Positions 43,778-61,357 of a stretch of 64,000 nucleotides of DNA are shown here, in pieces. The stretch comes from a virus (lineage: Duplodnaviria > Heunggongvirae > Uroviricota > Caudoviricetes). The notes beneath the pieces were generated by a model that did no database searches, had not been told where the DNA came from, and saw only the letters and a program-made list of their open reading frames with translations. The stretch lies in the IMG/VR virus record IMGVR_UViG_3300028602_000006; one strand, given 5' to 3'. Position 1 is the stretch's first letter, and each line of letters starts with the position of its first letter. Made by a program: the position numbers and the translations under genes.

Positions 43778-43843
43778 AGAGAATAAAGAAAGGAGTTAGA
43801 CATGAGGCGTTAGCATAAGTACTTACTCATTAATAATATAGAA

Positions 43844-43880
43844 TGAATCCCGCCTCGACTAACAGGGGCGGGATCATTCA
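43844..43880. terminator. GC-rich hairpin after bL12-like gene
   Basis: ATCCCGCC / GGCGGGAT; no clear U-tract. Confidence 0.5.
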
Positions 43881-44498
43881 TAAGGAAGTATAGCACAGAA
43901 TAAAACATATGTCAAGTAGAAAAGGATAGGAAATTACATACCAGATTGTATAAGGAATGTCAAGCAGAAAAAGTTTCACGTTAGAATTATTTTTTTATTT
44001 AGGGCTTGACAATAGGAGTCTAAAATGGTATAAGGCATAGGCAAACGACGGTCCGAAAAATCATGGGACTCCTAAAATTCCCGGGGATGCCTTAGCGGCT
44101 AGTTTGCGAACCTTTCTTTTGAGAAATGGCCATTTGCTTTTAAAAAAGTCTTATTAATTAATTATTTAATTCCTTAAATGCATAACATTAGTCGTGGCGG
44201 ACCTACTCTTTGGATAATAGAAAAAATCATATTGGGAAAGTGGGACTCCCGATATTTTTTTCACACCGGGAAAATTTTCAAAAAGTACAAATGGGATTAT
44301 TAAAAACTTCACTCAGGGATAGAACTTCATTACGCAGTGAATATTGGCTATTGGGTGAATAGAACATGGGACTCCTAAGAAGAAAGGGACTCCTGCCCAA
44401 AAAAATCACACCGGAAAAAATCACACAAACTATATTTCTTCTATAATAGGTAAAGCGCTTTACTAGTATGAATTATAGAAGTTATAAACTGCCCTAAT

Positions 44499-44561
44499 TG
44501 TTTTGTATAATATGTGTTATGTTTTGTATAATATGTGTTATGTTTTGTATAATATGTGTTA
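44499..44561. repeat. 21-bp tandem repeat x3 containing TATAAT
   Basis: TGTTTTGTATAATATGTGTTA x3. Confidence 0.9.
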
Positions 44562-44902
44562 TGAATATCGTTAAAATACTACCAGAATTGGATGAGCGTT
44601 TAATTCGTTTATTAAAAGAGGCTGAACAAATAGACATAGGCTGTGACAATAATGAAGATGCAATTGAAGAGTATGAGCATTATGATTGGGTTTCTAATTA
44701 TACAGAAATGGATATAAGTGATTTTGCTGTTGAAAAAGATATTCGGGAAGACAAATGGAAAATAAATTTAGAATCTGTGAAAATAGTTAGGGAAAATTAT
44801 AAAAACAATCTGGATATTATAAGGACGCCCAAACAATTACGATGTGTACAATACAAGCATATTGACAATAATTCTTGCTATAGATATTTTAAATTTAATT
44901 AA
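44561..44902 (+). CDS. hypothetical protein
   Basis: ATG at end of the repeat; track start 44498 is repeat-derived. Confidence 0.6.
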   Translation: MNIVKILPELDERLIRLLKEAEQIDIGCDNNEDAIEEYEHYDWVSNYTEMDISDFAVEKDIREDKWKINLESVKIVRENYKNNLDIIRTPKQLRCVQYKHIDNNSCYRYFKFN

Positions 44903-45075
44903 AACTGCATAACATTAGTCGTGGCGGGCATACTCTTTTATCTAACGATGGGACTCCTGCCCAAATAAAGGGACTCCAAAACGAAGTTGCAAACGGAAGT
45001 TTTAACTTTCCTAGTTATTTTTTCACACCGGGATATTTTTGAAAAGTACAAATTGCTTTATTGTATAATGTCTAT

Positions 45076-45366
45076 ATGAATAAGCTGCTAATAGAAGGAA
45101 CAGATTTAACGCTTGATATACGTCGGATGGATATCTTAGCTATAATTCCTCAATCTAAGCATAAAGAGGCTCATAAGGCATGTGGGTTAAATATCTCTAT
45201 TGATTATGATTTTGCTGAACGTGCATTTGAAGAACATATGAATAGGGTTATCGGGGGTGGTGATTGGGTACGTTGTATTATTGAATATGATGATTATCGC
45301 ATTCCTATAGATATTCATGGTGGTAATATTAATAAGAGTTATTTTGGCTATATTTTGTTCATTTAG
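45076..45366 (+). CDS. hypothetical protein
   Basis: TGTATAAT just upstream; TAG stop. Confidence 0.55.
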   Translation: MNKLLIEGTDLTLDIRRMDILAIIPQSKHKEAHKACGLNISIDYDFAERAFEEHMNRVIGGGDWVRCIIEYDDYRIPIDIHGGNINKSYFGYILFI

Positions 45367-45723
45367 TTTAACTTCCTGAATTAAACCATCGCTAACGGCT
45401 TTATTGAACATAGATTTGCCAGAGTCAGTGAAGTCAGTGCTTACGAAATCATTTCCTATTCCGACTCTATTGAGGAAATCATGGAACAGTATATATCCGA
45501 ATCCCTTTTTATTTGAATGTATCGTGATAAAGTAGGGGAGATATCCTTCTTTGAAATCGGCGGTATAGTCTACATCGGATTCATTCTATCCGCTATAGGA
45601 TTTATTTAATATTCCGTCGATCAGGAGGTTTTGTTCTTCTTTGGTGGAATCGGTGGAAATTTTAATCCATCCCGTTTGTTTACCTATAGACTGCCATTTT
45701 GATTTTGACAGTTTAATTTTCAT
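45187..45723 (-). CDS. leader-bearing gene with in-frame TAG at codon 46 (readthrough candidate or pseudogene)
   Basis: GGGAG RBS; MKIKLSKSKWQSIGKQTGWIK...YSG[TAG 45588-45586]NESDV...KKGFGYILF...DFTDSGKSMFNK. Confidence 0.65.
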
Positions 45724-45835
45724 ATTATTCTCCCATATTGATTGTGTTTTATTCAAAAAATAGAATTAAAATAACCTCCTTCAATGTTCTTCAAGGATTT
45801 AATTTGAGATTTAATGAAGAATTTATAGGTGACAA

Positions 45836-47357: not shown

Positions 47358-47527
47358 TATATAGAGCTTGGATAATTCAGTTTCAATATCATTTCATTAA
47401 TATTTTGATAGTTTTATTTTCTATAAATATAGCTCTTATTCCTTTTTGGTATTACATCTCGCATGATTCGCAAGGGAATTCGTCTGGCATTTGTGAATAA
47501 TATAATCAAGTGTATTGTGTATAAATT

Positions 47528-48223
47528 ATGAAAATATTAAAAACAGCAAACAATAAAAAATTAAAGCTTTCGAAAAGAGAGTGGGAAGTTATAGGCAAGA
47601 AAGCTGGATGGATTAAAGTTTCTGCTGATGAGCGGGATTTAAAGACGTTAAAGCAGCTCATGGATAGTCCTATGTTTTTAAATGCAATTTTGAGCGGGTC
47701 AGATGAATATTCCGCTAATATTCAAGAGGCCGTTAAATCAGTTATTTCCAATTGGGACGCTTTGGTTCGAGCTAAGACATTGCAACAGACGCAAGGGATT
47801 GAATTAGAAGAGGGTATGCCATTATCGGCGAAGAAAAGGGGTAAAATTTTAATAACCTCTCAGAATCAAAGTACAGACGACAGGGGAATGATTGATCTTC
47901 TGATTAAAAAATTAGAGGGATTGAAAAACAATATTCGTCCGGGGCAGGAAACATTAAAAGATGATATCAATGAATTTTCAAATAAAATAGATTCTATTAT
48001 TGGCTCTAATAGCGGGCAACCATCTTTACTAACACCGGGTGCGCCCGTAAATGTAACGATGATGGAAGGTGGCGGAATATATAAAATAGACACAGTAAAT
48101 AGCGATGGTACAGTAGTAGTTCAAGATGAGATGAATCGTCCTATGACTGTCAAGCAAACCAGAATTTATGGGCTTAATGAGCCGAAACCTAAAACGGATG
48201 CGATGGGGAATATAAAGAGATAA
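47528..48223 (+). CDS. hypothetical protein with MKILKTA...LSK..W..IG..AGW leader
   Basis: Leader motif; AGG-N19-GAA promoter. Confidence 0.7.
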   Translation: MKILKTANNKKLKLSKREWEVIGKKAGWIKVSADERDLKTLKQLMDSPMFLNAILSGSDEYSANIQEAVKSVISNWDALVRAKTLQQTQGIELEEGMPLSAKKRGKILITSQNQSTDDRGMIDLLIKKLEGLKNNIRPGQETLKDDINEFSNKIDSIIGSNSGQPSLLTPGAPVNVTMMEGGGIYKIDTVNSDGTVVVQDEMNRPMTVKQTRIYGLNEPKPKTDAMGNIKR

Positions 48224-48228
48224 TGTAT

Positions 48229-48708
48229 TTACTCTTCTTGTTCAAATATAACTGATATATCAGAACAAATAACTAAAGAAGATCCTATACCGAATAGATC
48301 TGCCATTAGATCTCCTACATCGAGTCTATTCTCGGTTGTAATGACATCTATTTCTTCTAAAGCTTCATAAATTGCATCGAAAGCGTTGGATATGATTCCT
48401 TCTGAGACTCCTTGATCTCTAAGTTCTTTTTGTAATCCAGTTTGATAAGCTCTCATAAATCCCTCAAGATGGGCGGATGCTGCGTTAGAGGCTGTGGAAG
48501 ATACCATAGCCAGAGTGAACAGAGGTTTGGATGCGATAGCATGATATTGTTTATCTATATCGAAATTTGTTTTAATTTCATTCTCAAACAATCGATTATA
48601 TAGGGTGGTAAAATCATCGGTTTCTCTTTGATTTAATGTAGAGCATCCAACCATCAAAATTGTCCCTAAGAGTATTAATATTGTTTTATTCATAATTATC
48701 CTTTCCAT
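48229..48708 (-). CDS. putative lipoprotein
   Basis: Signal peptide with ILMVGC lipobox; start may be 48693. Confidence 0.65.
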   Translation of the reverse strand: MERIIMNKTILILLGTILMVGCSTLNQRETDDFTTLYNRLFENEIKTNFDIDKQYHAIASKPLFTLAMVSSTASNAASAHLEGFMRAYQTGLQKELRDQGVSEGIISNAFDAIYEALEEIDVITTENRLDVGDLMADLFGIGSSLVICSDISVIFEQEE

Positions 48709-48833
48709 TTAGAATTTAATACATTATACAATCGTTTATAGGCATAGTGGGAGGATTAGGGCAAATATATTTTGAAATAAGAGGTTGTAATATAGTAAGA
48801 AATGGTAATGATTTTTATTCGCAAGATATTTTT

Positions 48834-51800
48834 ATGAACACATTTGATGATTTTATTAGATTAGCGTTTGCCAGACAAATTTGGAGTGATTTTCAAATTG
48901 GGTGGAAGGACGTAAATTTAATTAAAAAATTTGCAGTTCGATCTAATGGAATTGGCTCCAGAGAAAAAGAGTCATCTTGGGATAAACTAGAGAAGCTGAA
49001 AGATAGGGATGATATTTTTCTTTCATATATTAGTGAATTAAAAGATCCTCCATCGCCAAGAGGGGAGCGGACTCCTAGGTATCCAAAAATAGGAATCAAT
49101 CCCAAAAGTCATTACAATACTCCATTAGGTGTTTATACATATCCAATAAAAGAAATTTGGGGAAAACTTAGTAAGGGTGATTTATCAAATGTACCTTATC
49201 AAGGGGAGAAGCCCTACATTGCTGTTCTTCAACTCAGAGAGGGGAAAAAGTTCGTACAGGACATGTATAAAGATTATGATTCATCTGATTATGATGATGA
49301 TAGAAAGAAACTGCATAATTATTTTGTTCCGAAGGTATTATCAGAAGAAGAATTTAATCAAGTTGTAGACAAAGCTTCTCAAGAATCTTCTGATAAGAAT
49401 CCCATCACATCAATGTGGAATATTGCTCGCTATTTGGCCTATATTATTGTTCAATTCAAAGATAGAGATGTTGACAGAAACGCTATTTTAGATAAAGTAA
49501 AAGAGTATGGGGTATCATATCTAATGCCCTATAAAGTGAGGGGAAAATTAAACCCTTATGGATTGATTTTTAATAGAATTTTAAGCGACGATGAAGTTTT
49601 GGGTTATGCCGGATTTGCCGACCGTACTGGAAAGTCATACATTCACTCTGGTGAACCAATACAGGCAATTTTTCTAGATCCAAGCGGGTATAATGTTTTA
49701 GATATATTGCCGAATGAAAGTTCTGATGAGTATATCCCTTTAAATCCCAAAATAGAGGATGGCATTGAACTTACGAAAAAAATGCAAGATAATAGAATTC
49801 GCAGTAAAATACGTTCTTTTATTGAAAAGATGGGGGCAGAAAATATATCGGAGGATGTGTGGCGTCAAATTTTAGCTGGTCACCCCGATTTCATAAAGAG
49901 TTGTCCATATAAAAATTTGTTAGATGATCCATCAATTATAAAAAATCTCGATAAGTATTGGAGTAAAAAGGCCTTATTTGGCGATATAATCAATTTCAAT
50001 CCAGAAGAAATACCCATACATATTGATAAACTGCCGGAAACAAAAAGAGCGTTAAAAGAGGCATGGGAAAGAAATATTAAAGAAGATCCCACGGGTTTTA
50101 AATATGCTCCTGATTATGTTAAAAATGATCCGAGAATGGGGAGAGCGCACAAGGAGGGATGGGAATCATATTTAATGAAAGCGCCTATGTCTTGGAATGA
50201 TTGCCCATTTGAGGAAGTAAAGAAAAATAAAAAAGTCATTGAAAAAGCACAAGAATATTTCATAGACAGGATAAGATATGATGTAAGGGATTATGCATAT
50301 GTTCCAGAAGATTTAAAGAATGGAGAGTTGCATGAAAGTGCTGTTTTTGAATTTATAGAGCACATTAAAAATGATCCTACGTATTATTTATCCCCCAATC
50401 TTGAGTCGTTAAGATCAGAGCCTCGTGTATTGGATATTGCACGAGAAGAATGGAAGACGTTAATAAAACATCAACCAATTCAATTAGATAGACTGCCCAA
50501 GGAATTGAAAGAAGAATCCGACGGGGGCGCTATATATAGGGATATTGCCAAAAATACTGTTATGGGATGGATTAATAGTGAAGATCCTGTAAACTCTTAT
50601 TATGGGGAGGGGGGATATAATTGTAGAGTGCCAAAAGAATTAATGGAAAAAGACAAGGATATATTCAATGCTGTTATTGAGAAATGGGTTGAATTAATAA
50701 GAACAGGGGATATCTATATAGCGAAGGAAACGCCCAAGGATTTACTCAATATTCCACAGATTATAGATCAATTGAAAAAGACTTGGAAGGCGTACATAAT
50801 GGATCATCCTTACTCATTAGAGTCTTCTCCATTTCCTGAATTACAACATGACGAAGATATATGGAAATCTATTTTGAGTAATGAAGAATTTAGTGGTGAA
50901 TTCTGGCCAAGCTGTCCATTTGAATATATAAAAAATGACCCAAGAGTTATAGAGATTGCAAGAAATTGGTGGATAGATGCTTTAAAAAAAGATATTTATT
51001 TGATACAACAATTACCATCTGAACTAGGTTTGGATAATCTTCCGTCGATAAAAAAGATAAAGATAAAATACATCAAAGAGCGATCTAAACACGATCCTCG
51101 TTCGGTAGATACGCAAAATCTTGACGAAGAAGAAAGAGAAGCTTGGATGTCTGGGGCGAAATACCATGCAAAAACGTTTCCAGCGCAGGCAATGATTTTT
51201 AATGAAAGCGAGAGGCTTGAATTAATGCAAGACCCGCTTATAAGAAAAACATGGTTCAATACGTGGAAGAATATAGCCGTTTCAAATTGGGAAGATAAAA
51301 TTGAAAATCCTTTCGGTCATGCGCTTTATAATGATCCGGAAGTTATAAATAAAATTAGCGATTATATAGAAAAAGAGTTAAGTTATGGAAATCCCGTCGA
51401 AAAATGCGCAATTGATGGGCTTATAGAAAAGGTTAAAAATGATCCAAAATTACAACAGAATCTTTTAGAGCGATGGAAAAATGAAATATCCTCCAGTGAC
51501 CAATATCGTATTGATAAAGTGTATGATATTGCTATTGATAGATTCGCTTCAGACAAAGAAGCCATTAAAGAATTAAAGGGTGTTTACTTTAACACATGGG
51601 CGGAAATGGCCAAAAATAGTAGTTTGTTACATCTTGAATTGACTCCTATTGTGGTGGATTATTTTTCCAAGAGGCAGGATATGAGAGAATGGCTTATGGA
51701 TCAATGGCTAAAAGTGGCTGATAGGACAAAGATTTCTGATAATACGTATTTCGGCGGTGCTTTTGTGGGCTATAATACTCCCCCTTCTTTTGTGCAAAAC

Positions 51801-52076
51801 GATCAAAGATTCATTAATGTATTGGAAGATAATAGGTGGTCATATTTCTTGAGGCATTCCCCCAGCAAATTGAATGAGGTTCCTCCCGAGGTTATGAACT
51901 TGCCTAAGGTGAAATATGAAATAGAAAAAATAAACGCATCAAAAGGTTCTAATGAAATCCATACAGAGGAGCCGGCAGCTGCGCCATTGGAAACTGGAGA
52001 AAAAGATATACAAGCATCATCTCAACGAACATTATGGGCAAGCACTTTTAACGATAATGTAATAATTAATATATAA
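48834..52076 (+). CDS. large protein: globular N-domain plus Trp-rich helical repeats
   Basis: NPKSHYNTPLGVYTYP...EPIQAIF; repeated (C/S)PF..(I/L)K.DP.V units; ATG 48834 preferred. Confidence 0.75.
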   Translation: MNTFDDFIRLAFARQIWSDFQIGWKDVNLIKKFAVRSNGIGSREKESSWDKLEKLKDRDDIFLSYISELKDPPSPRGERTPRYPKIGINPKSHYNTPLGVYTYPIKEIWGKLSKGDLSNVPYQGEKPYIAVLQLREGKKFVQDMYKDYDSSDYDDDRKKLHNYFVPKVLSEEEFNQVVDKASQESSDKNPITSMWNIARYLAYIIVQFKDRDVDRNAILDKVKEYGVSYLMPYKVRGKLNPYGLIFNRILSDDEVLGYAGFADRTGKSYIHSGEPIQAIFLDPSGYNVLDILPNESSDEYIPLNPKIEDGIELTKKMQDNRIRSKIRSFIEKMGAENISEDVWRQILAGHPDFIKSCPYKNLLDDPSIIKNLDKYWSKKALFGDIINFNPEEIPIHIDKLPETKRALKEAWERNIKEDPTGFKYAPDYVKNDPRMGRAHKEGWESYLMKAPMSWNDCPFEEVKKNKKVIEKAQEYFIDRIRYDVRDYAYVPEDLKNGELHESAVFEFIEHIKNDPTYYLSPNLESLRSEPRVLDIAREEWKTLIKHQPIQLDRLPKELKEESDGGAIYRDIAKNTVMGWINSEDPVNSYYGEGGYNCRVPKELMEKDKDIFNAVIEKWVELIRTGDIYIAKETPKDLLNIPQIIDQLKKTWKAYIMDHPYSLESSPFPELQHDEDIWKSILSNEEFSGEFWPSCPFEYIKNDPRVIEIARNWWIDALKKDIYLIQQLPSELGLDNLPSIKKIKIKYIKERSKHDPRSVDTQNLDEEEREAWMSGAKYHAKTFPAQAMIFNESERLELMQDPLIRKTWFNTWKNIAVSNWEDKIENPFGHALYNDPEVINKISDYIEKELSYGNPVEKCAIDGLIEKVKNDPKLQQNLLERWKNEISSSDQYRIDKVYDIAIDRFASDKEAIKELKGVYFNTWAEMAKNSSLLHLELTPIVVDYFSKRQDMREWLMDQWLKVADRTKISDNTYFGGAFVGYNTPPSFVQNDQRFINVLEDNRWSYFLRHSPSKLNEVPPEVMNLPKVKYEIEKINASKGSNEIHTEEPAAAPLETGEKDIQASSQRTLWASTFNDNVIINI

Positions 52077-52099
52077 GTCTTCTGTATAATACAGGGGAT

Positions 52100-52402
52100 A
52101 TGTCAACTCAATTTATAGCTAAGCCTAGAGATAACATGGATATGGTTTTCTCTGCGCCATCCAAACCGTCTTTAGTTTGCGGGATACGGTGTGTAACTCG
52201 TTCAAATAAACATATTGTGTCGATTCCGTTTTCTTCATATAAGCAAGGGGATTATAAAACAGCAAATAACATTAGAATGTATGGGGTTAGAACTCCAGAA
52301 CATAGTAAAGTAATGGGACCATTTGACGGAGTTATGGATGCGTTTGATGATATTCCAAAAAAAATTGTTAAAAATAATATTTTGAAGAATTTTCAAAACT
52401 AA
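52100..52402 (+). CDS. hypothetical protein
   Basis: TGTATAAT and GGGG upstream. Confidence 0.6.
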   Translation: MSTQFIAKPRDNMDMVFSAPSKPSLVCGIRCVTRSNKHIVSIPFSSYKQGDYKTANNIRMYGVRTPEHSKVMGPFDGVMDAFDDIPKKIVKNNILKNFQN

Positions 52403-52422
52403 GTAACGGGGGCGGAGGATAT

Positions 52423-52695
52423 ATGCCGATAGTAAAATTTTTTCCAGAGGATGAAGATAGGACTTATGAAATACAAAAGTATCGTAAGGAATTGAATAAA
52501 AAATATAAAAGAGGCGCATCATCTGAGTTTATCCCGAATCCAAATCCCCCTAATGTTAAATTTCCTACGCCGTTAGATATTGTGGGAAGTACAGACGGTA
52601 AATTGAACGGTTATATTGGCTCTATTCCTCCGCAAGATAAATCGTTAATTAGAGCTAAAATTTTAACTTGTAATCCAATTGTTTGCAATGATTAA
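52423..52695 (+). CDS. hypothetical protein
   Basis: GGAGG RBS. Confidence 0.6.
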   Translation: MPIVKFFPEDEDRTYEIQKYRKELNKKYKRGASSEFIPNPNPPNVKFPTPLDIVGSTDGKLNGYIGSIPPQDKSLIRAKILTCNPIVCND

Positions 52696-52707
52696 GGAGA
52701 TGCGAAA

Positions 52708-52938
52708 ATGACACTGTTAAAATGGAAACACGAAAATAAATCAAATGAATGGATTGATAATGAGCATGGATGGGCAATCAATAAGAATGATGTCCCCGAA
52801 AGGCCGTACCAACTATTATCCAATGGAATAAATTTAGGTTCATTAAATAAATTAGCATCTGCAAAACAGTTGGCAGAACTTGCAGAGTTGGGTGAAATAT
52901 ATATTGAAGAGCCAAAGGCGGAAGAATTATCCCAATAG
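52708..52938 (+). CDS. hypothetical protein
   Basis: AAGGAG RBS. Confidence 0.65.
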   Translation: MTLLKWKHENKSNEWIDNEHGWAINKNDVPERPYQLLSNGINLGSLNKLASAKQLAELAELGEIYIEEPKAEELSQ

Positions 52939-52942
52939 TTAA

Positions 52943-53866
52943 TTATTGGAAAAGAAGTTGAAGCCATTGCTCCATGGGAGGTATTTGTTTTGGCCATAAA
53001 AATGCCTGAAGATATTTAGAGGCTTCGTCTATATTCCAAGATTTAATTATTTCCAATATTTTATTAACTGGCCATCCATGATCATCGGCCAATCTTTTCA
53101 GAAAATCTGTTGCATCAAATTCATCTTCTGGCATATACACTTTATTTTTTATATCGATATGCTTATTTTCCATTGTTTCTTTACCGTCAAATCCCTTTCG
53201 TTTGCTATATTGATATTGTTGGATGAAATCCTCTCTCGCCAGTTCTTCCCATGGGTCTGAGATGAGAGGCGTATCTTCATGTTTTTGAACCCAAAATGAA
53301 TTGATTCTTGACGGATTAAGATTACCGATAAATAGTGCCTGATATTCTCTTGGAGCCATAAGCATTTCCGCAAGTTCAGGACGGCTAGAATTTGCAATAG
53401 CCTTATATTCTGATTGTTTTGCTTTCTCTCTTTGTTTTAGGATTGCTTGTTGACGCTGTTCATCTAACTTATCCCAGTCCCAATATTCCGACATGCCACC
53501 TTGAACTGTATATCCGCCTCCCGGCCATACAGGGATTTCCAGTTCTTTATATCGGCAAGTGAATTCCATAATAGCCCCAAAAGTAGTGAAGTCCTTAGCT
53601 GTTTCGAAGTTTGTTGTTATAAACAGACCTTTAGGGTTATTATTGCTTTCATAGGAATAAACTCTTTCTGCCACACTTTGTCCGCTTAGTCCGTGTTTTG
53701 CCGTTATTATGGCATCATTCATATCTCTGAAGGCATGATAAACACGCAACTCATCATCTTCTTGAAACGCTTCTTGTTTTTCAATAACTTTATAGAAGAC
53801 ATTTTCGGCGTTATCAAATCCGAATTCTCTTCTCTTATTTTGGGCAATTTTATACCAAGATATCAT
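52943..53866 (-). CDS. MISWYKIAQ-leader protein with possible ADP-ribosyltransferase fold
   Basis: LRVYHAF / KGLFITTNFETAKDF / EYQALF pattern. Confidence 0.55.
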   Translation of the reverse strand: MISWYKIAQNKRREFGFDNAENVFYKVIEKQEAFQEDDELRVYHAFRDMNDAIITAKHGLSGQSVAERVYSYESNNNPKGLFITTNFETAKDFTTFGAIMEFTCRYKELEIPVWPGGGYTVQGGMSEYWDWDKLDEQRQQAILKQREKAKQSEYKAIANSSRPELAEMLMAPREYQALFIGNLNPSRINSFWVQKHEDTPLISDPWEELAREDFIQQYQYSKRKGFDGKETMENKHIDIKNKVYMPEDEFDATDFLKRLADDHGWPVNKILEIIKSWNIDEASKYLQAFLWPKQIPPMEQWLQLLFQ

Positions 53867-53945
53867 AATGTGTTAATTTCTATCTTATTGCTATGGAATC
53901 CTTGATTTTAGAGGGCAAATCATTTGTTTTTTAGAATTAATATAA

Positions 53946-54134
53946 ATGAATTTTAGAGAAAAAATAATAGTGATTGCAATAGCGGCTATATTATCGGGAT
54001 GCGTTACGGCTAGGAACCCATCAGATATACGTCCGCCTTTAATGAATGATCGTACATTTACAAATTTTGTACCCACTATTGTAACTAATGAACTGCCATC
54101 AACAAATTATTATATTCAAAATGGGGGATTTTAA
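53946..54134 (+). CDS. small lipoprotein
   Basis: AILSGC lipobox. Confidence 0.65.
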   Translation: MNFREKIIVIAIAAILSGCVTARNPSDIRPPLMNDRTFTNFVPTIVTNELPSTNYYIQNGGF

Positions 54135-54841
54135 TGCTATTAGATCATTTGAGATACAGTAAGACTAATTTTGAATCGGGGGGACTATTAGATGAGCCTG
54201 ATATTCGTGCCAAACGCATAATAATGAGGGTTCCAGAACAATTTATAGCTCCACGAAGGATTGATTCAAGAGATATGTGTTTAAGTTCAAGTAACCAACA
54301 GCAAACGCCGCACTGCGCTGGATACTCTGCCGCTGGATATATTGAATTTCGCAATTGGAAAACCTTGCACTATCCTGCGCAAGTTGATGGTGATAAGATA
54401 TATGAAGAAGCCAAGAAGATTGACATGAATAATCATCCGGGAACAACATTGATATCTGTGGCAACAGCATCAATTAGTTTAGGGTTGATAAAAGGGAAAC
54501 CCCAATATGTTGCGTACCCAGAGATTGAGGGATCAGCGATGGATAGAAAGTTAAAAAGAATAACATCCATAAAGTTTGCCCTACATCAATATGGTGTTGT
54601 TTTGGCCGGATTTAGGATTACGGATGAATGGGATTGGGTCGATAAAAGGAATGGAATGATTAGAGATTTAGGAGATAAGGCGATAAACCGTGGCGGACAT
54701 GCAGTTTTGCTTTGTGGTTATGATGATATGGGCGTTTATATACAAAATAGTTGGTCCGAAAAATGGGGCATCTATGGGTTTGCATGTTTAAGTTGGGATC
54801 AATACGATAAACAGATCATGCAAGCTATGATTATTGATTAA
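54134..54841 (+). CDS. papain-like C1 cysteine peptidase
   Basis: NQQQTPHCAGYS, GGHAVLLCGYD, IQNSWSEKWG. Confidence 0.85.
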   Translation: MLLDHLRYSKTNFESGGLLDEPDIRAKRIIMRVPEQFIAPRRIDSRDMCLSSSNQQQTPHCAGYSAAGYIEFRNWKTLHYPAQVDGDKIYEEAKKIDMNNHPGTTLISVATASISLGLIKGKPQYVAYPEIEGSAMDRKLKRITSIKFALHQYGVVLAGFRITDEWDWVDKRNGMIRDLGDKAINRGGHAVLLCGYDDMGVYIQNSWSEKWGIYGFACLSWDQYDKQIMQAMIID

Positions 54842-54923
54842 TGATAACCTTAAATAATGTGCTTCTTCCGCTGAGCCTGTGGACAATATTGCAATATTCT
54901 TTAAATGACTCTTCATCGAGCGT

Positions 54924-56208
54924 CTGACATACTCCCACGGCTAAAGACCGTGGGGTTCTAGTTTCCTTTCGGAAATAAAGTCTTTGCCCAGACTTTTTAT
55001 TAAAGCAAATTGTTTAATATTGTTAGCAGCATTTATGTCTCTATCATGATTTGTTCCACAAGAAGAACATTCCCATTCTTTTTCTTCTCGTTTTAATTTT
55101 TGATAGATATGACCACAAACAGAACATCTTTTACTAGATGGTTCAAATCTTCCAATAACTAAAAGATTTTTACCACTATCTTCACATTTATATTCCATCA
55201 TTTGTCTAAACATTCTCCATCCCGCATCTCCTATGGCCTTAGACATTGGTGCGAAATTTTCTTGTTCCATTTCTTTTACTGCTAAATCCTCCATAGCATA
55301 ACTTGTCCAGTCTTGGTTCTTGACTAAACTTGTTGTTAATTTATGGAGAAAATCTTTTCTCTGGCTTCTAATTTTTTTGTGTATTCGTCTTACTTTCTCC
55401 TTTTGTTTTTGATATACTTTTGTGTCTTTATTCTTTTTACTAAGAATCTGTTGTTCTTTTGCTAATTTGTCTTCATACTTTTTGAAATGTTTAGGATTAT
55501 CTATTTTTGTGTCATCTGAAAATATTGCCAAATGAGTTGTCCCTAAATCAATTCCTAGTGTTTTGCTTTCTTTGATTTGTGAAGGCTGTGGGGTTTCTAT
55601 TCCTTCATCATAACAAATTGAAGCATAATATTCTGTTCCTTCTCTTGAAACAGTTATGTTTTTAAATGCACAATCTTCTGGAGCATTAAATTTATCTATG
55701 AATCTTATCCACTTTAGTTTTGGAAGTTTAATATGCTTTTTGTCTTTAGAAATTTCAAAGTATTGTGGAACACGAAAAGATTGTTTTGGATTGTGTTTTG
55801 ATTTGAATTTTGGAAATTTATTGTTTTTCTTGAAAAAGTGAGAAAAAGCAGAGTCTAAATCTTTTAGGGTTTGTTGAAGTGATTGGGCATTAACTTCTTT
55901 TAGCCAAGGTTTTTCTTCATACATCTTTGGAATATCTTTTTGAATTTGATAAACAGAAATTGATTTTTTGGTTTCTGTGTATGTTTTGGATTTCGTTTCT
56001 AGTCCATAATTATAGATAACTCGGCAACAACCGAAATGTTTTTCGATTAATTCTTTCTGCCATTTTCTAGGATATATTTTGACCTTTATCGCTTTCACAT
56101 TTTTATTATACATTAAGTTATTAACTTTTTCCTCTAAAAAAGTTAAAATAATTGAAATGTTCGCTTTCATCCTACGACTGAAGATCGTAGGCTTTCCCGC
56201 TCGCCTTC
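54924..56208 (-). mobile_element. IS200/IS605-family (tnpB-only, IS1341-like) insertion
   Basis: LE hairpin CCTACGAT-CTTCA-GTCGTAGG after AAAG; RE hairpin CCCACGG-TCTTTAG-CCGTGGG ending GTCAG; no tnpA; junction uncertain by 2-3 nt. Confidence 0.85.
54941..56113 (-). CDS. tnpB: TnpB RNA-guided endonuclease
   Basis: HTH KIYP..WQKELIEKHFGCCRVIYN; LGIDLG, AMEDL, CSVCG..CSSC, DRDINAANNI; ATG 56113. Confidence 0.92.
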   Translation of the reverse strand: MYNKNVKAIKVKIYPRKWQKELIEKHFGCCRVIYNYGLETKSKTYTETKKSISVYQIQKDIPKMYEEKPWLKEVNAQSLQQTLKDLDSAFSHFFKKNNKFPKFKSKHNPKQSFRVPQYFEISKDKKHIKLPKLKWIRFIDKFNAPEDCAFKNITVSREGTEYYASICYDEGIETPQPSQIKESKTLGIDLGTTHLAIFSDDTKIDNPKHFKKYEDKLAKEQQILSKKNKDTKVYQKQKEKVRRIHKKIRSQRKDFLHKLTTSLVKNQDWTSYAMEDLAVKEMEQENFAPMSKAIGDAGWRMFRQMMEYKCEDSGKNLLVIGRFEPSSKRCSVCGHIYQKLKREEKEWECSSCGTNHDRDINAANNIKQFALIKSLGKDFISERKLEPHGL

Positions 56209-56343
56209 GTAAATTCATTGGCCTGAGATTGTCGCAATGGAAGTTTGATTTTTTTGCCCATTGATTCAAGCTTTTGACTAAAAGATTCTAATTGAACATC
56301 ATTCATGCTTGTATTATCCATAAAATTAGTTATAATAGTCTAT

Positions 56344-57036
56344 ATGACAAAAATTTACATAACAGGAGATATACATGGAGATCCGTTTAGGTTTTCTACA
56401 AAAAAATTTCCAGAGGGTAAAAAATTAACCAAAGAAGATTATGTCATTGTCGCTGGAGATTTCGGGATTATTTGGAAGAACGATTCTGGAAGAGAAGAGC
56501 AATATAAACTCAAGTGGTTAAGAGACAAACCTTGGACTACGCTGTTTGTGGACGGGAACCATGAGAATCATGAGCGTTTAGATATTCTGCCGACTGAAGA
56601 AAAATTCGGAGGCAAGGTGGGAGTAGTATGCCAAGATGTATACCATTTGAAACGTGGCGAAATATATCAAATTGGAGGGAAATCGTTTTTTACTTTTGGG
56701 GGGGCGCACTCTACTGATAGAGAAAGTAGAAGAATAGGAGTATCTTGGTGGGATAGAGAATTGCCCAATTATGCAGAAATGGATTATGGGTTAGGGCAAT
56801 TGGAGAAGGTGAAATACTCAGTCGATTATATTATTACTCACACAATCCCCCGATCTTTAATTGAAGTCTTAGGATTTTCAAAAAGACCGATAGAAGGTGA
56901 TGACCCAACCATTAAATATTTAGATCATATCGCTCACGCAACTACTTTTAAGAAGTGGTATTTTGGGCATATGCATGTCGATAGGGACTTAGGTAAATTC
57001 AGAGCGCTTTACGAGTATATTGACGAGATTATGTGA
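56344..57036 (+). CDS. calcineurin-like metallophosphoesterase
   Basis: GDIHG, AGDFG, VDGNHE, THT, YFGHMH. Confidence 0.88.
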   Translation: MTKIYITGDIHGDPFRFSTKKFPEGKKLTKEDYVIVAGDFGIIWKNDSGREEQYKLKWLRDKPWTTLFVDGNHENHERLDILPTEEKFGGKVGVVCQDVYHLKRGEIYQIGGKSFFTFGGAHSTDRESRRIGVSWWDRELPNYAEMDYGLGQLEKVKYSVDYIITHTIPRSLIEVLGFSKRPIEGDDPTIKYLDHIAHATTFKKWYFGHMHVDRDLGKFRALYEYIDEIM

Positions 57037-57364
57037 TTTTTGGATCTAAATCTTTGATTTTTGGATCTAAATCTTTTTCAGGGATATATTCCGCTCCGGT
57101 TGCCTCCCCCATCATCGATGATTGAAATCTATTTATATATCTCCCTTTATTTGTGAGAAATAGGTCTATTGCTCCGCTATATGTCATATCATTACCGTCT
57201 TTATCGACCAGTTCATCATCGGAGTTTATTATTGCATAGCCTTCCTGAATGGCATTTTGCAAAGCTTCTGCATGGTTTCTTCCCGTAAAGAATTTTCCTC
57301 CGGCATAAATGGCGGCGGCGATGGGATACTCTCTGTCTTTGGATGTTTTGTACCAAGATTTCAT
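57029..57364 (-). CDS. MKSWYKTSK-leader hypothetical protein
   Basis: Leader; FFTGRNH..FLTNKGRYINR; C-terminal KDLDPKI x2 from 21-bp duplication 57034-57075. Confidence 0.7.
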   Translation of the reverse strand: MKSWYKTSKDREYPIAAAIYAGGKFFTGRNHAEALQNAIQEGYAIINSDDELVDKDGNDMTYSGAIDLFLTNKGRYINRFQSSMMGEATGAEYIPEKDLDPKIKDLDPKIT

Positions 57365-57450
57365 GCGATATATTTCTTTTTGGCAGGGGAATGAACCTTT
57401 TTAAGAGAATATAGGTAATAATATCTTATAAAACACATGGAGTATAACAC

Positions 57451-57900
57451 ATGAAAATATTAAAGACAGCATCTGGCAATAAACTTTCTATTTCAAGGAA
57501 AGAATGGGAAGCGATGGGTATTAAATCGGGGTGGTTGACTTCTCGCTATCGTGGGCCGGGCAAAGGGACGAGCGAAAAAGAAGTTACTCTTTATCGTGAC
57601 TCTAACGGAACAATATCTTTAATGGAAGATGAAGGTACTCCTTTTACAGCATTTATTGAATATTCCTATTCTCCCGCTGAAAAAGCTGAATATGAAGGTA
57701 GTTTGATGACTTATCCGGGGGCAAGCGCATCAGTAGATATAATTTCTGTAAAGGATGAGAATGGAAACGAAGTTCCAGTTGACCATGAATCTTTATCAGA
57801 GACATTTGATCTTGTGAATGAATATGAGAATGTTTCAGAGTCTGCTTATGAAAATGCTATGGATGCGAAACGTGAGGATAAGATTCTAGGTAGTTACTAA
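57451..57900 (+). CDS. hypothetical protein with MKILKTA...ISRKEW..MG..SGW leader
   Basis: GGAG RBS; leader. Confidence 0.7.
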   Translation: MKILKTASGNKLSISRKEWEAMGIKSGWLTSRYRGPGKGTSEKEVTLYRDSNGTISLMEDEGTPFTAFIEYSYSPAEKAEYEGSLMTYPGASASVDIISVKDENGNEVPVDHESLSETFDLVNEYENVSESAYENAMDAKREDKILGSY

Positions 57901-58208
57901 AATTTCCCCTGTTGCCATCTTTTTTCTCTCTCATTAAGCCATTCTTGTTCAGCTTCTTGCTTTTCTTTTCGAGTGTCTTTGTACCGAAGAGTTTTTAGAA
58001 GATCTACAGATGGAACTCTTCCGAATTTTTTCCCAGAAGATTTCTCAATTTGTTCTAGAAAAGAATTTGCATCTTCATGGCTTTTGAAGAGGGGGATATT
58101 ATATTTGTAGAGTTCTCTTACAGAAAATACTTCATCGCCCTCTTCGTCATAAAGCATCCCATTTTCAAGTAAGTATTCTTCGGATTGAGCTAATTTGTAA
58201 ATCTTCAT
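57897..58208 (-). CDS. MKIYKLAQ-leader hypothetical protein
   Basis: ATG 58208 just after AGG-N19-GAA. Confidence 0.65.
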   Translation of the reverse strand: MKIYKLAQSEEYLLENGMLYDEEGDEVFSVRELYKYNIPLFKSHEDANSFLEQIEKSSGKKFGRVPSVDLLKTLRYKDTRKEKQEAEQEWLNEREKRWQQGKF

Positions 58209-58276
58209 AGGTAAATAATTCACAAAATAATTATGTTTTACCTTTAGAATGTTACACATTATGTATAATATCAAAT

Positions 58277-59062
58277 ATGAAAGTGATTGTTTTAGGCAAA
58301 GGGTATCTAGGATCTGAATTCGAGCGGAATGGATATGATGTTAGAGGAAGAGGTTTCTTTAACGCTCAATCTCTTCATAATATGCCTTTATCAAAATTAG
58401 ATGACTTCAATATTATTATTAATTGTATTGGGAATAGCGATACTAGGTGGTGCGAAGATCCTAGAAATTTTGAAGAGGCTATGTTTGTAAATGCGTATGT
58501 GCCTAAAATTTTAAGTGATTATTGCAAATTAAATAACAAAAGGTTTGTGCATATATCAACTGGATGTCTTTATGACAAGAATAATAGCAGGGAGAACAAT
58601 AATCTCGTTTCTCATTGTAATTATACAGTTACAAAATTTGCCGCTGAGAGGTTAATAGATCCATCTAGAGACCTTATCATTCGCCCTAGGTTATTATTCA
58701 GCGATGTAGTAAATAAAAAGAATTTGTTAGTAAAGCTACCTAATTTCAAGCACTATATATATGATAAGTGGGATAGTTTAACATGTACAACTACTATCGT
58801 TGAAGCGGTACAAAGCTTATTAGATAATGATCAGGTTGGAGTATTTAACGTTGCAAATGATGGTAATGCATCTATTTTTGATATTGCATCTTGGTGCGGA
58901 TGGGCAGAATATACTAAAATAATTGGAATAGAAGATTTAAGGGCGGAACAAGGTTTATATCTTGTTAATAATACGATGAGGCTGGAAAAGTTAAAGCAGT
59001 TTTACCAACCGCCAAAATTAAAAGATATTGTAATTGATTGTTTTAGCAAGCTATATGTCTGA
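58277..59062 (+). CDS. NAD-dependent sugar reductase/epimerase (RmlD-like SDR)
   Basis: VIVLGKGYLG, FVHISTGCLY, YTVTK. Confidence 0.8.
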   Translation: MKVIVLGKGYLGSEFERNGYDVRGRGFFNAQSLHNMPLSKLDDFNIIINCIGNSDTRWCEDPRNFEEAMFVNAYVPKILSDYCKLNNKRFVHISTGCLYDKNNSRENNNLVSHCNYTVTKFAAERLIDPSRDLIIRPRLLFSDVVNKKNLLVKLPNFKHYIYDKWDSLTCTTTIVEAVQSLLDNDQVGVFNVANDGNASIFDIASWCGWAEYTKIIGIEDLRAEQGLYLVNNTMRLEKLKQFYQPPKLKDIVIDCFSKLYV

Positions 59063-59064
59063 TT

Positions 59065-59646
59065 CTATTTTACTCTTCCCAACTTCCAGCACTTCCTGCA
59101 AACAGCGATATAAGACTCATTTCCTCCGGTTTGTATTTGTACGCCAGTTTTAATTGCCTCTCCATTACTTAGACGAAGATTGCAGTTGGCTTTTCTTCCG
59201 CAGTGGCACATTGTTTTTATTTCTTGAATTGAATCCGAAAGTTCTATTAGGCGTTTACTTCCTGTAAATAATTTATTTTTAAAATCAGTTTTCAATCCAT
59301 AGCATATAACGACGATATTGAGAGTGTCTACAATATCACTTAGTTGTTCAACTTGACATTTTGATAGAAACTGAGCCTCTTCGACAATGATAAGATCTAT
59401 TTTTTGTTTCTTAATTAGTTCTGATACTATCTCATAGAAATTTGTATCTTCATAGATCACAAGATCAGCCTTCGCCTCTATTCCAATTCTTGATTTTATC
59501 ACGCCGATGCCATCTCGATCATCAATTGAGGAAGTCGCCAGCAGAGTATTCATGCCCTGCTCTTTGTAATTAAAATTTGTAATCAATAGTTGTGCGGTTT
59601 TGGCGGCTCCCATAGCGCCATAATAAAAATACAATTTTGCTTTCAT
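59065..59646 (-). CDS. tdk: thymidine kinase
   Basis: YGAMGAAKT, IVEEAQF, YGLKTDF, CHCG, YIAVCRKC. Confidence 0.92.
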   Translation of the reverse strand: MKAKLYFYYGAMGAAKTAQLLITNFNYKEQGMNTLLATSSIDDRDGIGVIKSRIGIEAKADLVIYEDTNFYEIVSELIKKQKIDLIIVEEAQFLSKCQVEQLSDIVDTLNIVVICYGLKTDFKNKLFTGSKRLIELSDSIQEIKTMCHCGRKANCNLRLSNGEAIKTGVQIQTGGNESYIAVCRKCWKLGRVK

Positions 59647-59680
59647 TGGATTATTATACAGCCTTCCAAGCAAAATTAGA

Positions 59681-60124
59681 TTAATCTAATCCGAATACAT
59701 TGTCAAATAAACCGCTTAGGTTAGGTACTTCCGCTGGATCAATATTTTCATATACTTCTGTATTTATTTGCATATCAGAAGAGTCAACATACGTTGGTTC
59801 AGGTTCTATATAATCATACTTATCTCTTAAAGCAGTGAGACGATTAGATTCAAGAGAATGGTCGTAATTAGCAAAACTTGGATGGGTTTCAGTCTTTTGA
59901 TCAAGCTCGCCAACCTTTAACTTAGTTGGTATACTTATGTAATCGCTGCAATTTTGAGAACGGTTGAGTTGCAATTTCGCTTTAGTTATCCATCCATCAT
60001 GTATTTGAGATGCTTTGTCGAAGACTTCTTGCCTCTTTTCTTCAAATGCGTCGATACCACCATGAGGAGCGTAAGTTTGTTCTATAAAAGCGTCCATCAT
60101 TTTGCTCATATCATATGCCTCCAC
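59681..60124 (-). CDS. hypothetical protein
   Basis: 147 aa ORF; start uncertain. Confidence 0.65.
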   Translation of the reverse strand: MEAYDMSKMMDAFIEQTYAPHGGIDAFEEKRQEVFDKASQIHDGWITKAKLQLNRSQNCSDYISIPTKLKVGELDQKTETHPSFANYDHSLESNRLTALRDKYDYIEPEPTYVDSSDMQINTEVYENIDPAEVPNLSGLFDNVFGLD

Positions 60125-60579
60125 ATGTCCTGATGAGTCTTATACCAATTAGCAAGATAAACTTGTCCGTCTATTTCCCCTAGCCTTGTTCCGTCAACGG
60201 CAAGGGAGTGCTGATTATCTTTGCATCGTTCGCATCCGAAGAGATCGTAATATCTCCCATTTTTTTGATATCCATTTTTTAAACAACTCCATACTCCCCA
60301 GCAATAAGGGCAGTATTCATCATTACAGAACCCCCACGCTTCTGGATCGTGGCTGTATGGTATTTCTTCTCCATCGCACCATTTAATGAGATCTTTTGGA
60401 TAGCGAATTGAGTTTGCCCAAACTTTAGATTTCCCGCAGGAGCATTTCATCAATTGCCCCGGGTTAAAATGATGTTTTGGATTATTTATTATATCTGTTA
60501 TTTCTAGGAGCGTATTGCAAAGTTCACAAATATAGCTTCCATCTTTGGCGAACTTCCATGCTATTCGATACATTTTCAT
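60106..60579 (-). CDS. MKMYRIAW-leader multi-Zn-finger protein
   Basis: CELC, CSCG, CPYC, CERC. Confidence 0.7.
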   Translation of the reverse strand: MKMYRIAWKFAKDGSYICELCNTLLEITDIINNPKHHFNPGQLMKCSCGKSKVWANSIRYPKDLIKWCDGEEIPYSHDPEAWGFCNDEYCPYCWGVWSCLKNGYQKNGRYYDLFGCERCKDNQHSLAVDGTRLGEIDGQVYLANWYKTHQDMWRHMI

Positions 60580-60596
60580 TTTGCTTCTACGATATT

Positions 60597-60899
60597 TTAC
60601 TCTAAAAGATTTTTATGCTGACCATGCGCTAGCGGAGTAACAAGGACTTCATATATTTTACCGTCATTATATCTAAACCACCCTACCGAGCCATTTGATA
60701 CTAAATATGAACTTAATCTTTCGTCAAATACTCCGGATTTAGATATATCTTCGATGATATCAGATGTATGCGCTTTACCTTTCTCGCCAAGTTCCTCCTT
60801 TCGCCATTCTTGTTCCATTAGAAAGGATTCGGCTTCTGGAGATTCGAGAGGGTCTACTCCTTCATTTGAAAATGGTTGAGCTAATTTTAATATTTTCAT
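60597..60899 (-). CDS. MKILKLAQ-leader hypothetical protein
   Basis: Leader; AGG-N18-GAA upstream. Confidence 0.7.
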   Translation of the reverse strand: MKILKLAQPFSNEGVDPLESPEAESFLMEQEWRKEELGEKGKAHTSDIIEDISKSGVFDERLSSYLVSNGSVGWFRYNDGKIYEVLVTPLAHGQHKNLLE

Positions 60900-60955
60900 A
60901 ATGTTAGTATTTCAATAAAAAGGGTCAATATACCTTTCTATCGAAATAATAGTAT

Positions 60956-61357
60956 ATGAATTGGTACAAAGAACATAAAATGGTTGAGGCATTTTACTGC
61001 CTTGTCACAGAAGAAAATTATCGATTCGCCATGTCCCCATCAAGAGACTATAAAAAAATAGATCTGAAGAGGTGGGGGAAGTTGCATGCGATGTTATCTA
61101 AAATTGTTGGATTGACTTCTTCTGACCCAGATTTTCTTGATAAATTCATGGAGTTAAGCGATGTTTTCAGGGAACTTACTGATCGTTTAGGTAGATTGCC
61201 AAAAAAAGAAGAATTTTTAACTGCATGGAGATCTTGGGAACTGTATAAAGGCATGCGCCATCCAGAAAGAATAAAAGAGGAATATAATTATCCTATGGGC
61301 GGATTAACCAAAGTCCCTCAACCAGAGCAAAGTTTACCTGTTAACGCATTAGTTTAA
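60956..61357 (+). CDS. MNWYKEH-leader hypothetical protein
   Basis: Leader; AGG-N19-GAA upstream. Confidence 0.7.
   Translation: MNWYKEHKMVEAFYCLVTEENYRFAMSPSRDYKKIDLKRWGKLHAMLSKIVGLTSSDPDFLDKFMELSDVFRELTDRLGRLPKKEEFLTAWRSWELYKGMRHPERIKEEYNYPMGGLTKVPQPEQSLPVNALV

What the first reader, a model, noticed from the sequence alone, without database searches (positions are those of the whole stretch)
45187..45780. Late-type gene split by a single in-frame TAG: likely target of the suppressor tRNA
Seen: missed by the ORF track. It has an AGG-N20-GAA promoter, GGGAG RBS and the MKIKLSKSKWQSIGKQTGW leader. TAG is codon 46 (45588-45586), and the frame stays open for over 130 more codons with protein-like sequence (KKGFGYILF..STDFTDSGKSMFNK, loosely GNAT-like). 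Without readthrough only a 45-aa peptide (mostly leader) is made; with it the domain is attached. Caveat: the last ~58 codons overlap a + gene antisense, so decay is possible.
Basis: partly seen in the sequence, partly recalled or inferred. Interest (0 to 1): 0.8.

Follow-up and report, generated by a model that had tools for sequence, protein, structure and literature searches.

The report
Amber-interrupted, tail-truncated phage gene remnant
A small late-type gene in a huge phage has a stop codon (TAG) inside a conserved domain. It has also lost its conserved end where a deletion joined it to a neighbouring gene, so it is more likely a recently broken gene than a designed target of the phage's suppressor tRNA.

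Summary
ATG 45723, TAG at codon 46 (45588-45586) and 132 further open codons on the minus strand are all present.

An exhaustive HMMER search found 38 hits. About 30 belong to an unnamed domain family with a weak GNAT-like fold; the rest match only the leader. The best hit (58% identity, E 4e-30) aligns across the TAG, where homologs mostly have Phe or Leu. The TAG therefore lies inside a real domain, and all 12 family-conserved positions are intact.

The gene carries a second lesion. Its similarity to the family stops at about 45337-45355. The conserved last strand and C-terminal helix ('T.WKV..DP..L') are replaced by 45-55 codons that are the in-register antisense of the convergent + gene 45076-45366. 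That + gene has lost its own conserved tail at 45354. An 18-nt stretch resembling both genes marks a probable deletion junction.

This was the only intragenic TAG found in about 74 kb scanned. TAG ends 16 of 117 ORFs, so the genome is not recoded.

Best reading (about 0.6): a recently inactivated gene, read through at most incidentally by tRNA(CUA). A suppression-dependent late gene remains possible (about 0.2). No reads or close relatives were available to decide.

The parts
45751..45782 (-). Promoter-like motif GAAGGAGG-N20-GAAT, an imperfect version of the AAGG-N19-GAAW motif of the neighbouring leader-type genes
   Evidence: The same N19 motif precedes the closest homolog's gene in L002.
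45730..45734 (-). Shine-Dalgarno-like GGGAG, 6 nt before the ATG
45589..45723 (-). Codons 1-45. These hold the class-B motif (MKIKLSKSKWQSIGKQTGWIK) and the first helix of the domain. This is the 45-aa product made if TAG terminates.
   Evidence: P0002 is the called 45-aa ORF. Homology to the family starts at about residue 27-33.
45586..45588 (-). In-frame TAG, codon 46. Homologs mostly have Phe, some Leu. P0001 has TTT here.
45355..45585 (-). Codons 47-123, the conserved core of the domain. It runs from DY.ADF through GFGYILFHDFLNRVG and STDFT to GLIQ. It has no stops or frameshifts, and all family-conserved positions are kept.
   Evidence: AF2 pLDDT about 90 for residues 25-125
45337..45354 (.). 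An 18-nt stretch similar to both gene families, probably the microhomology at a deletion or recombination junction. Similarity to the + family ends exactly at 45354. Similarity to the minus family ends at about 45337.
45187..45336 (-). Non-homologous tail of the minus ORF. It is the in-register antisense of the + gene, scores as non-coding, and has AF2 pLDDT below 50 from residue 137.
45076..45366 (+). Convergent 96-aa gene of the left (early) module. It keeps the family's invariant IPIDIHGGN..YFGYI but has lost the usual NPxxF tail, which is replaced by LFI. Its stop, TAG, is the complement of minus-strand codon 120 (CTA).
17730..17805 (+). tRNA with anticodon CTA (amber-suppressor type). It has a canonical cloverleaf and a short variable loop. 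Which amino acid it carries was not determined.
   Evidence: It is weakly similar to the annotated suppressor tRNAs of jumbo phages XacN1 and RAS14.

Best explanation
The minus-strand ORF 45723-45187 is a recently disabled copy of a small late-type phage gene. The intact gene would consist of a class-B N-terminal motif followed by an unnamed domain of about 100 aa with a weak GNAT-like fold.

Two independent lesions are present. (1) A nonsense TAG sits at codon 46, a position where relatives mostly have Phe or Leu. (2) The conserved last beta-strand and C-terminal helix have been lost. The loss lies at a junction (about 45337-45355) where a deletion or illegitimate recombination, at an imperfect 18-nt microhomology, joined the 3' ends of two convergent genes. 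Both genes were clipped.

If TAG terminates, translation yields a 45-aa peptide. The genome also carries a tRNA(CUA), so some ribosomes may read through. That would produce the domain core with a 45-55-residue antisense-derived tail, most likely as a tolerated by-product rather than a designed product.

Shown here: the TAG, the homology across it, the missing C-terminus, the synteny break and the coding frame in the overlap. Inferred: the deletion mechanism, the loss of function, and any readthrough.
For: Homology across the TAG:
- 38 HMMER hits. P0001 aligns to query 33-134 at 58% identity, E 3.8e-30.
- 17 aligned representatives plus 14 metagenome loci. None has an in-frame stop. All except one member that stops after 'WRVL' and one locus cut by its contig end carry the C-terminal 'T.W[KR]V..DP..L' segment. 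The window copy reads 'ITLINITT...' there.
- the AF2 model of P0001 (pLDDT 91.5) shows this segment as strand 110-117 plus helix 121-140, an integral part of the fold.
- in the read-through product the core has pLDDT about 90, but residues 137-178 fall below 50.

The overlap and the junction:
- in the overlap the + frame scores +0.40/codon and the minus frame -0.04.
- the + gene has a family with an invariant YFGYI. Its similarity ends exactly at 45354, and the family tail is missing.
- L003 is syntenic (ArdC, L12-like gene, + gene homolog) up to that point and then differs.
- 45337-45354 matches the + relative at 16 of 18 nt, and 45337-45360 matches the minus relative at 17 of 24 nt.
- a 59-codon open in-register antisense frame is expected in 9-11% of cases, so its openness needs no selection.

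No sign of recoding:
- this is the only TAG with coding signal on both sides that lies within a gene, over 64 kb plus a further 10 kb. The extra 10 kb includes genes next to the ClpP-like protease.
- TAG ends 16 of 117 ORFs.
Against: - Apart from the two lesions the gene looks fresh. All 12 invariant or near-invariant family positions are kept, and there is no frameshift or second stop in 77 post-TAG core codons. A promoter-like motif and an RBS are in place. This fits very recent inactivation, but it fits a functional suppressed gene equally well.
- A canonical tRNA(CUA) is encoded in the same genome.
- The TAG is followed by A, a context generally favourable to amber suppression. This point rests on general knowledge and was not tested here.
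- The antisense tail begins with a strand-like stretch (TLINI). AF2 places it as a strand at pLDDT 63-75, so partial function is not excluded.
Confidence: 0.6

Rival explanations
1. This is a functional gene that depends on suppression. The phage tRNA(CUA) accumulates during infection, reads the TAG, and so times or limits synthesis of the leader-plus-domain protein. It would be an early step towards TAG recoding of late genes, as proposed for standard-code relatives of recoded phages.
For: - A canonical tRNA(CUA) is present.
- The domain is intact across the TAG, with all conserved residues kept.
- A late-type promoter-like motif and an RBS are present.
- The gene sits in the late or leader-gene module.
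- Borges et al. (bioRxiv 10.1101/2021.08.26.457843) describe suppressor tRNA acquisition in standard-code relatives, followed by accumulation of in-frame stops in structural and lysis genes.
Against: - It is a single case in about 74 kb.
- TAG is used as an ordinary stop in 14% of ORFs, including late-region genes.
- Backup stops after TAG are not significantly enriched (44% within 4 codons, against 27-29% for TAA and TGA; n=16).
- The product would lack the conserved C-terminal strand and helix and would carry a low-confidence antisense tail.
- Relatives have hydrophobic Phe or Leu at the site, whereas known phage TAG reassignments insert Gln.
Confidence: 0.2
2. The 45-aa product is itself the functional protein. 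It would be a stand-alone class-B motif peptide, and the downstream sequence would be a leftover.
For: - The class-B motif is a self-contained unit of about 20 aa. It occurs at N-termini and internally in many unrelated metagenomic proteins. It also occurs in a 78-aa protein whose first 23 residues are nearly identical to this one (P0037).
- The promoter motif and RBS are intact.
Against: - Residues 27-45 are the first helix of the downstream domain, not an independent module.
- No homolog ends at this point.
- There is no evidence for any function of the isolated motif.
Confidence: 0.12
3. The TAG is a sequencing or assembly error, or a minority variant, and the real population has a sense codon.
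For: - This is a metagenome assembly and no reads could be examined.
- TAG is one substitution away from TTG (Leu) or TAT (Tyr), both of which would fit the position.
Against: - Two non-identical public records of this phage carry the same TAG. They differ by one 21-nt repeat unit and show 0 mismatches over 20 kb.
- A read-level error would not explain the missing C-terminus.
Confidence: 0.05

Closest known systems
Stop-codon (TAG to Gln, code 15) recoding of late genes in phages with suppressor tRNAs (Ivanova 2014; Borges et al., bioRxiv 10.1101/2021.08.26.457843; Peters et al. 2022, PMC9523058)
   Same: This is a low-GC phage genome that encodes a tRNA(CUA). The in-frame TAG lies in a gene of the late-type module, at a position where homologs have a sense codon.
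   Different: Recoded phages have many in-frame TAGs spread over structural and lysis genes, and few TAG stops. Here there is one in-frame TAG in about 74 kb, TAG ends 14% of ORFs, and the affected gene is also truncated.
Standard-code jumbo phages that carry a suppressor tRNA (for example Xanthomonas phage XacN1, Stenotrophomonas phage RAS14)
   Same: These are large phages with annotated tRNA-Sup genes. The window's tRNA is 76-79% identical to them over most of its length.
   Different: No target codons are annotated in those records, and none were examined here.
GNAT-fold acetyltransferases, including minimal ones such as anti-CRISPR AcrVA5 and the acetyl-CoA-binding C-terminal domain of M. 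tuberculosis ICL2/Rv1916
   Same: The model of the closest homolog has a beta-beta-alpha-beta-alpha-beta-beta-alpha layout with a GxG loop before the central helix. Its best structural matches are GNAT-type domains (Rv1916 Z 7.3, AcrVA5 Z 5.9, Foldseek E about 4e-3).
   Different: No Pfam GNAT model matches. The scores lie in the range the tool calls non-specific. Winged-helix regulators score similarly. The N-terminal half of a canonical GNAT is absent.
Ordinary phage pseudogenes or gene remnants at module junctions
   Same: A premature stop combined with loss of a conserved terminus, at a point where synteny with relatives breaks.
   Different: A suppressor tRNA in the same genome could make the nonsense lesion leaky.

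Membership tests
TAG-recoded (code 15-like) phage gene set | Genome encodes a tRNA that reads TAG | tested here: met
   ARAGORN finds anticodon CTA at 17730-17805. Rfam tRNA score is 65.9 bits.
TAG-recoded (code 15-like) phage gene set | Many genes, especially late ones, carry in-frame TAG at positions that are sense codons in homologs | tested here: not met
   The scans found only this intragenic case in 64 kb plus 10 kb. Reading TAG as Gln merges no other genes, apart from two adjacent gene pairs that happen to share a frame. About 108 kb of the genome was not scanned.
TAG-recoded (code 15-like) phage gene set | TAG is rare or absent as a true stop | tested here: not met
   TAG ends 16 of 117 chosen ORFs and 7 of 36 ORFs of at least 150 aa.
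Unnamed 'DY.ADF...GYIVFHDFL.RVG...STDFT' domain family of huge phages | Significant sequence similarity over the domain core | tested here: met
   E 3.8e-30 to P0001, with 11 hits at or below 1e-10. 14 further loci were found.
Unnamed 'DY.ADF...GYIVFHDFL.RVG...STDFT' domain family of huge phages | Conserved C-terminal strand and helix 'T.W[KR]V..DP..L' | tested here: not met
   The segment is present in nearly all full-length relatives. It is absent from the window copy, which reads ITLINITT followed by an antisense tail.
GNAT acetyltransferase superfamily | Match to a GNAT sequence model | tested here: not met
   No Pfam hit for the window protein or for 28 family members.
GNAT acetyltransferase superfamily | GNAT fold with a pyrophosphate-binding loop (R/Q-x-x-G-x-G/A) before the central helix | tested here: inconclusive
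   The top fold matches are GNAT-type, but only at Z 7.3 or below and Foldseek E at or above 4e-3. A GxG loop precedes helix 60-72, but the R/Q position varies.
Pseudogene | Premature stop and a missing conserved segment relative to all homologs | tested here: met
Pseudogene | Neutral evolution of the remnant | not testable with these tools
   The closest relative found is only 58% identical. No closer genome or read set was available.
Pyrrolysine decoding | Atypical tRNA-Pyl architecture and pyl genes | tested here: inconclusive
   ARAGORN's 'Pyl' label reflects only the anticodon. The tRNA has an ordinary cloverleaf. Pyl genes were not searched for in the whole genome.

The most novel reading that the evidence does not exclude
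This standard-code huge phage has just begun TAG recoding. Its tRNA(CUA) has 'detoxified' a first in-frame amber codon in a late gene, and the gene's expression now depends on the suppressor. That would be a natural snapshot of the earliest step in the recoding path proposed by Borges et al.
Probability: 0.2. Interest if true: 0.65.

Novelty: new member of a known kind. Interest (0 to 1): 0.35.

Why it matters
If the TAG is read through on purpose, this gene would be a rare first-step example of how phages move from the standard code to a recoded one. It would also give the suppressor tRNA a concrete target. On the more likely reading it shows something different: a suppressor tRNA and an in-frame TAG in the same genome are not enough to infer recoding, and comparing the gene with its homologs exposed a second lesion. 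As a by-product, the work defines an unnamed domain family of huge phages with a weak GNAT-like fold. The family is attached to interchangeable N-terminal motifs and also occurs inside giant proteins.

Tried and rejected
- Phage GenBank tblastn found no match.
- IMG/VR scans with the gene and with two neighbours found no relatives.
- The word-indexed protein search with the read-through product found nothing, although the exhaustive HMMER search did.
- Pfam and PHROGs gave no family for the gene.
- Sequencing runs: none was listed in either search. No RNA holder was listed.
- The whole genome is not held, so about 108 kb of the 182.6-kb contig was not scanned for other in-frame TAGs.
- Cluster look-up showed only the same phage record(s).
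- Relatives of the 1109-aa neighbour are only 31-42% identical, and their contigs end before the relevant position.
- Looking up the second contig through the 1109-aa protein failed, because the GTG start was printed as V.
- tRNA isotype: blastn against E. coli genomes found nothing. Phage hits were annotated Met, Sup and Thr, so the inserted amino acid is undetermined.
- Tandem backup stops after TAG and the nucleotide following TAG stops gave no significant signal.
- A 13-nt exact inverted repeat (ATAGAATGAATCC) links the TAG site to 43838. About 0.2 chance matches are expected per window, so it was judged probably coincidental.
- An assembly chimera at the junction was considered unlikely. 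The shared stretch is only 18 nt and imperfect, far shorter than the assembler's k-mer.

Full report
**Context**

The window is part of a low-GC (about 36%) huge-phage contig of 182,571 bp. It encodes PARP-like, RtcB, RNA ligase, TnpB and ArdC-like proteins. It also holds two tRNAs, one with anticodon CTA at 17730-17805.

Under the standard code nearly all long genes are open. Reading TAG as a sense codon does not merge genes in any systematic way.

**The observation**

On the minus strand, GGGAG (45734-45730) precedes an ATG at 45723. Codons 1-45 encode MKIKLSKSKWQSIGKQTGW... Codon 46 is TAG (45588-45586). The frame then stays open for 132 codons, to TAA at 45189-45187.

The N-terminal motif recurs at three other gene starts in the window: 46714+, 47528+ and 57451+.

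**Is the part after the TAG real coding sequence?**

Yes, for codons 47 to about 123. An exhaustive HMMER search of 1.84 billion representatives gave 38 hits. Eleven of them score at or below 1e-10.

The best hit, P0001 (141 aa), is 58% identical and aligns to query residues 33-134. That alignment runs straight across the TAG. About 30 of the hits belong to one family of small proteins or domains. Its conserved blocks are DY.ADF, PYFLNIWS, GxGYIVFHDFLxRVG, F.STDFT, LF.KA and GLI.

A metagenome scan added 14 loci. At the TAG position most relatives have Phe and some have Leu. P0001 has TTT there.

All seven invariant and five near-invariant alignment positions are kept in the window copy. Codon-usage scoring also favours this frame for 45585-45367 (+0.185 per codon, best of six frames, no stops).

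**A second lesion**

Nearly all full-length relatives continue after GLI.. with a short linker. Then comes a conserved strand 'T.W[KR]V', then '..DP...L' and a helix. The exceptions are one member that stops after 'WRVL' and one locus cut by its contig end.

In the AF2 model of P0001 (pLDDT 91.5) these form strand 110-117 and helix 121-140. The window copy reads '...GLIQEVKLNEQNIAKITLINITTMNIY...' instead and has no such segment.

From 45366 downwards the minus ORF is the exact in-register reverse complement of the + ORF 45076-45366. In that interval the + frame scores +0.40 per codon and the minus frame -0.04.

The + ORF is a real gene. It has five homologs at 32-60% identity, with an invariant ...IPIDIHGGN..YFGYI. 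Its closest homolog sits in a syntenic contig, L003, in the order ArdC-like, L12-like..., homolog.

Similarity to that family ends exactly at 45354. The relatives go on with 'NPxxF...', whereas the window has 'LFI' followed by TAG. That TAG is the complement of minus-strand codon 120 (CTA).

Similarity of the minus strand to P0001 DNA runs down to about 45337, with 17 of 24 nt identical over 45337-45360. The two homologies therefore overlap in an 18-nt stretch, 45337-45354.

I read this as the microhomology at a deletion or illegitimate-recombination junction. The event would have joined the 3' ends of two convergent genes and clipped both. Downstream of the + gene homolog, L003 carries other genes that are absent here.

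That the antisense frame stays open for 59 codons needs no selection. The + gene has no TTA, CTA or TCA codon there, and 9-11% of 59-codon windows in this genome's genes share that property.

In an AF2 model of the read-through product the core (residues 25-125) has pLDDT about 90. Residues 137-178 are below 50. A strand-like TLINI is placed at moderate confidence.

**Is the genome recoded?**

No sign of it. I scanned for TAGs flanked on both sides by 40 open codons with coding signal. In 64 kb this found the present site and two other sites, at 7113 and 17356. Those two are gene ends, each followed in the same frame by the next gene with its own ATG.

A further 10 kb beyond the window includes genes next to the ClpP-like protease and a cell-wall hydrolase. 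It gave no case.

TAG ends 16 of 117 chosen ORFs. Backup stops within 4 codons follow 44% of TAG stops, against 27-29% of TAA and TGA stops. With n=16 that difference is not significant. The base following TAG stops shows no avoidance of A.

**Reliability of the base**

A second public record of the phage (L001) is identical to the window over 20,138 nt. The only difference is one copy of a 21-nt tandem repeat, and L001 carries the same TAG. No sequencing run was listed, so reads could not be examined.

**What the domain is**

No Pfam or PHROG family matches.

Fold searches with the P0001 model put GNAT-type domains at the top. Foldseek against PDB gives E about 6e-3. Foldseek against AFDB clusters gives E about 4e-3, naming 'GCN5-related N-acetyltransferase'. 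VIA-align gives Z 7.3 to the acetyl-CoA-binding domain of Rv1916/ICL2 and Z 5.9 to the minimal acetyltransferase AcrVA5.

These scores fall in the range the tool itself calls non-specific, and winged-helix proteins score similarly. 'Loosely GNAT-like' is therefore a fair but unproven description.

The family occurs in several forms:
- as stand-alone proteins with different N-termini (P0001 has a class-A-type MKIYRICQL start);
- fused to other domains;
- inside giant ORFs.

**Promoter**

AAGG-N19-GAAW occurs 19 times against 10.7 expected. Ten of the matches lie just upstream of leader-type genes between 47 and 63 kb. The same N19 motif precedes the P0001 gene in L002.

The copy upstream of this gene is imperfect. 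It is GAGG-N20-GAAT, or AAGG-N23, and lies farther from the ATG.

**Interpretation**

Two independent lesions in one gene are most simply explained by relaxed selection. The genome is otherwise compact and contains no other interrupted gene in about 74 kb. On this reading the gene is a recent remnant.

The intact conserved residues, promoter-like motif and RBS show that the inactivation is recent. They are equally what a functional suppressed gene would show, so that rival keeps about 0.2.

[quoted passage not shown] It proposes that in-frame stops then accumulate in late genes once they are 'detoxified'. A leaky nonsense allele tolerated because of the tRNA would fit between the two readings. 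What the tRNA inserts is unknown.

**Verdict**

- Observation: confirmed.
- Interpretation: partly supported. The TAG does split a real domain, and a tRNA(CUA) exists. The evidence favours a broken, 3'-truncated gene over a programmed suppression target.

Noticed in passing
window 44499-44563: A 21-nt tandem repeat (TGTTTTGTATAATATGTGTTATG register) is present in 3 copies in the window but 2 copies in the other public record (L001). Each unit contains a TGTATAAT -10-like box just upstream of the ATG at 44559. This is the only difference between the two records over 20 kb.
   Followed up: partly
window 45723-, 46714+, 47528+, 57451+; proteins P0022, P0027, P0028, P0032, P0035, P0036: The class-B 'leader' (K[IL]KLSKSQWE.IGKKAGW[IM]K) is not only N-terminal. 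In metagenomic proteins it also occurs a second time internally, 100-270 residues in. It therefore behaves as a repeatable module of about 20 aa rather than a simple signal peptide.
   Followed up: partly
window 47418-63237 (10 sites); L002 2462-2488: The motif AAGG-N19-GAAW lies 10-60 nt upstream of the starts of class-A and class-B leader genes. It also precedes the closest homolog's gene in an unrelated contig. It is a candidate late-promoter consensus shared across this phage group.
   Followed up: partly
window 44176-44301 and 44903-45062: A composite intergenic cassette of about 130-160 nt is repeated. It holds a 36-nt block at 92% identity, GGGACTCCTGCCCAAA, and TCACACCGGG...TTTTCAAAAAGTACAAAT. 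It lies ahead of small + strand genes of the left module and probably holds shared regulatory sites.
   Followed up: no
window 6876-7484 and 17140-17694: Two gene pairs are separated by a TAG stop, with the next gene in the same frame (TAG at 7113 and at 17356). If the tRNA(CUA) is active, readthrough would fuse each pair.
   Followed up: partly
window 43838-43850 (+) and 45589-45577 (-): An exact 13-nt inverted repeat, ATAGAATGAATCC, covers the TAG codon on one arm and one arm of a hairpin downstream of the 43148-43777 gene on the other. About 0.2 chance matches are expected per window, so it is probably coincidence.
   Followed up: partly
window 63243-63824 (-) and L021 7044-9906: A ClpP-family protease gene lies next to three unannotated genes (312, 379 and 238 aa) just beyond the window's end. 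It may be a prohead protease and capsid module. It would be a candidate processor of the shared N-terminal leaders.
   Followed up: no
L015 (Ga0315277_10000010) and L004: The same domain is embedded near the middle of a giant ORF of more than 2000 codons on a 336-kb contig. In another contig it is fused to an unrelated N-terminal domain of about 250 aa.
   Followed up: no
window 45076-45366 (+): The convergent 96-aa gene is itself 3'-truncated relative to its family. The conserved 'NPxxF..' tail is replaced by LFI, and its TAG stop is followed by a TAA six codons later.
   Followed up: yes
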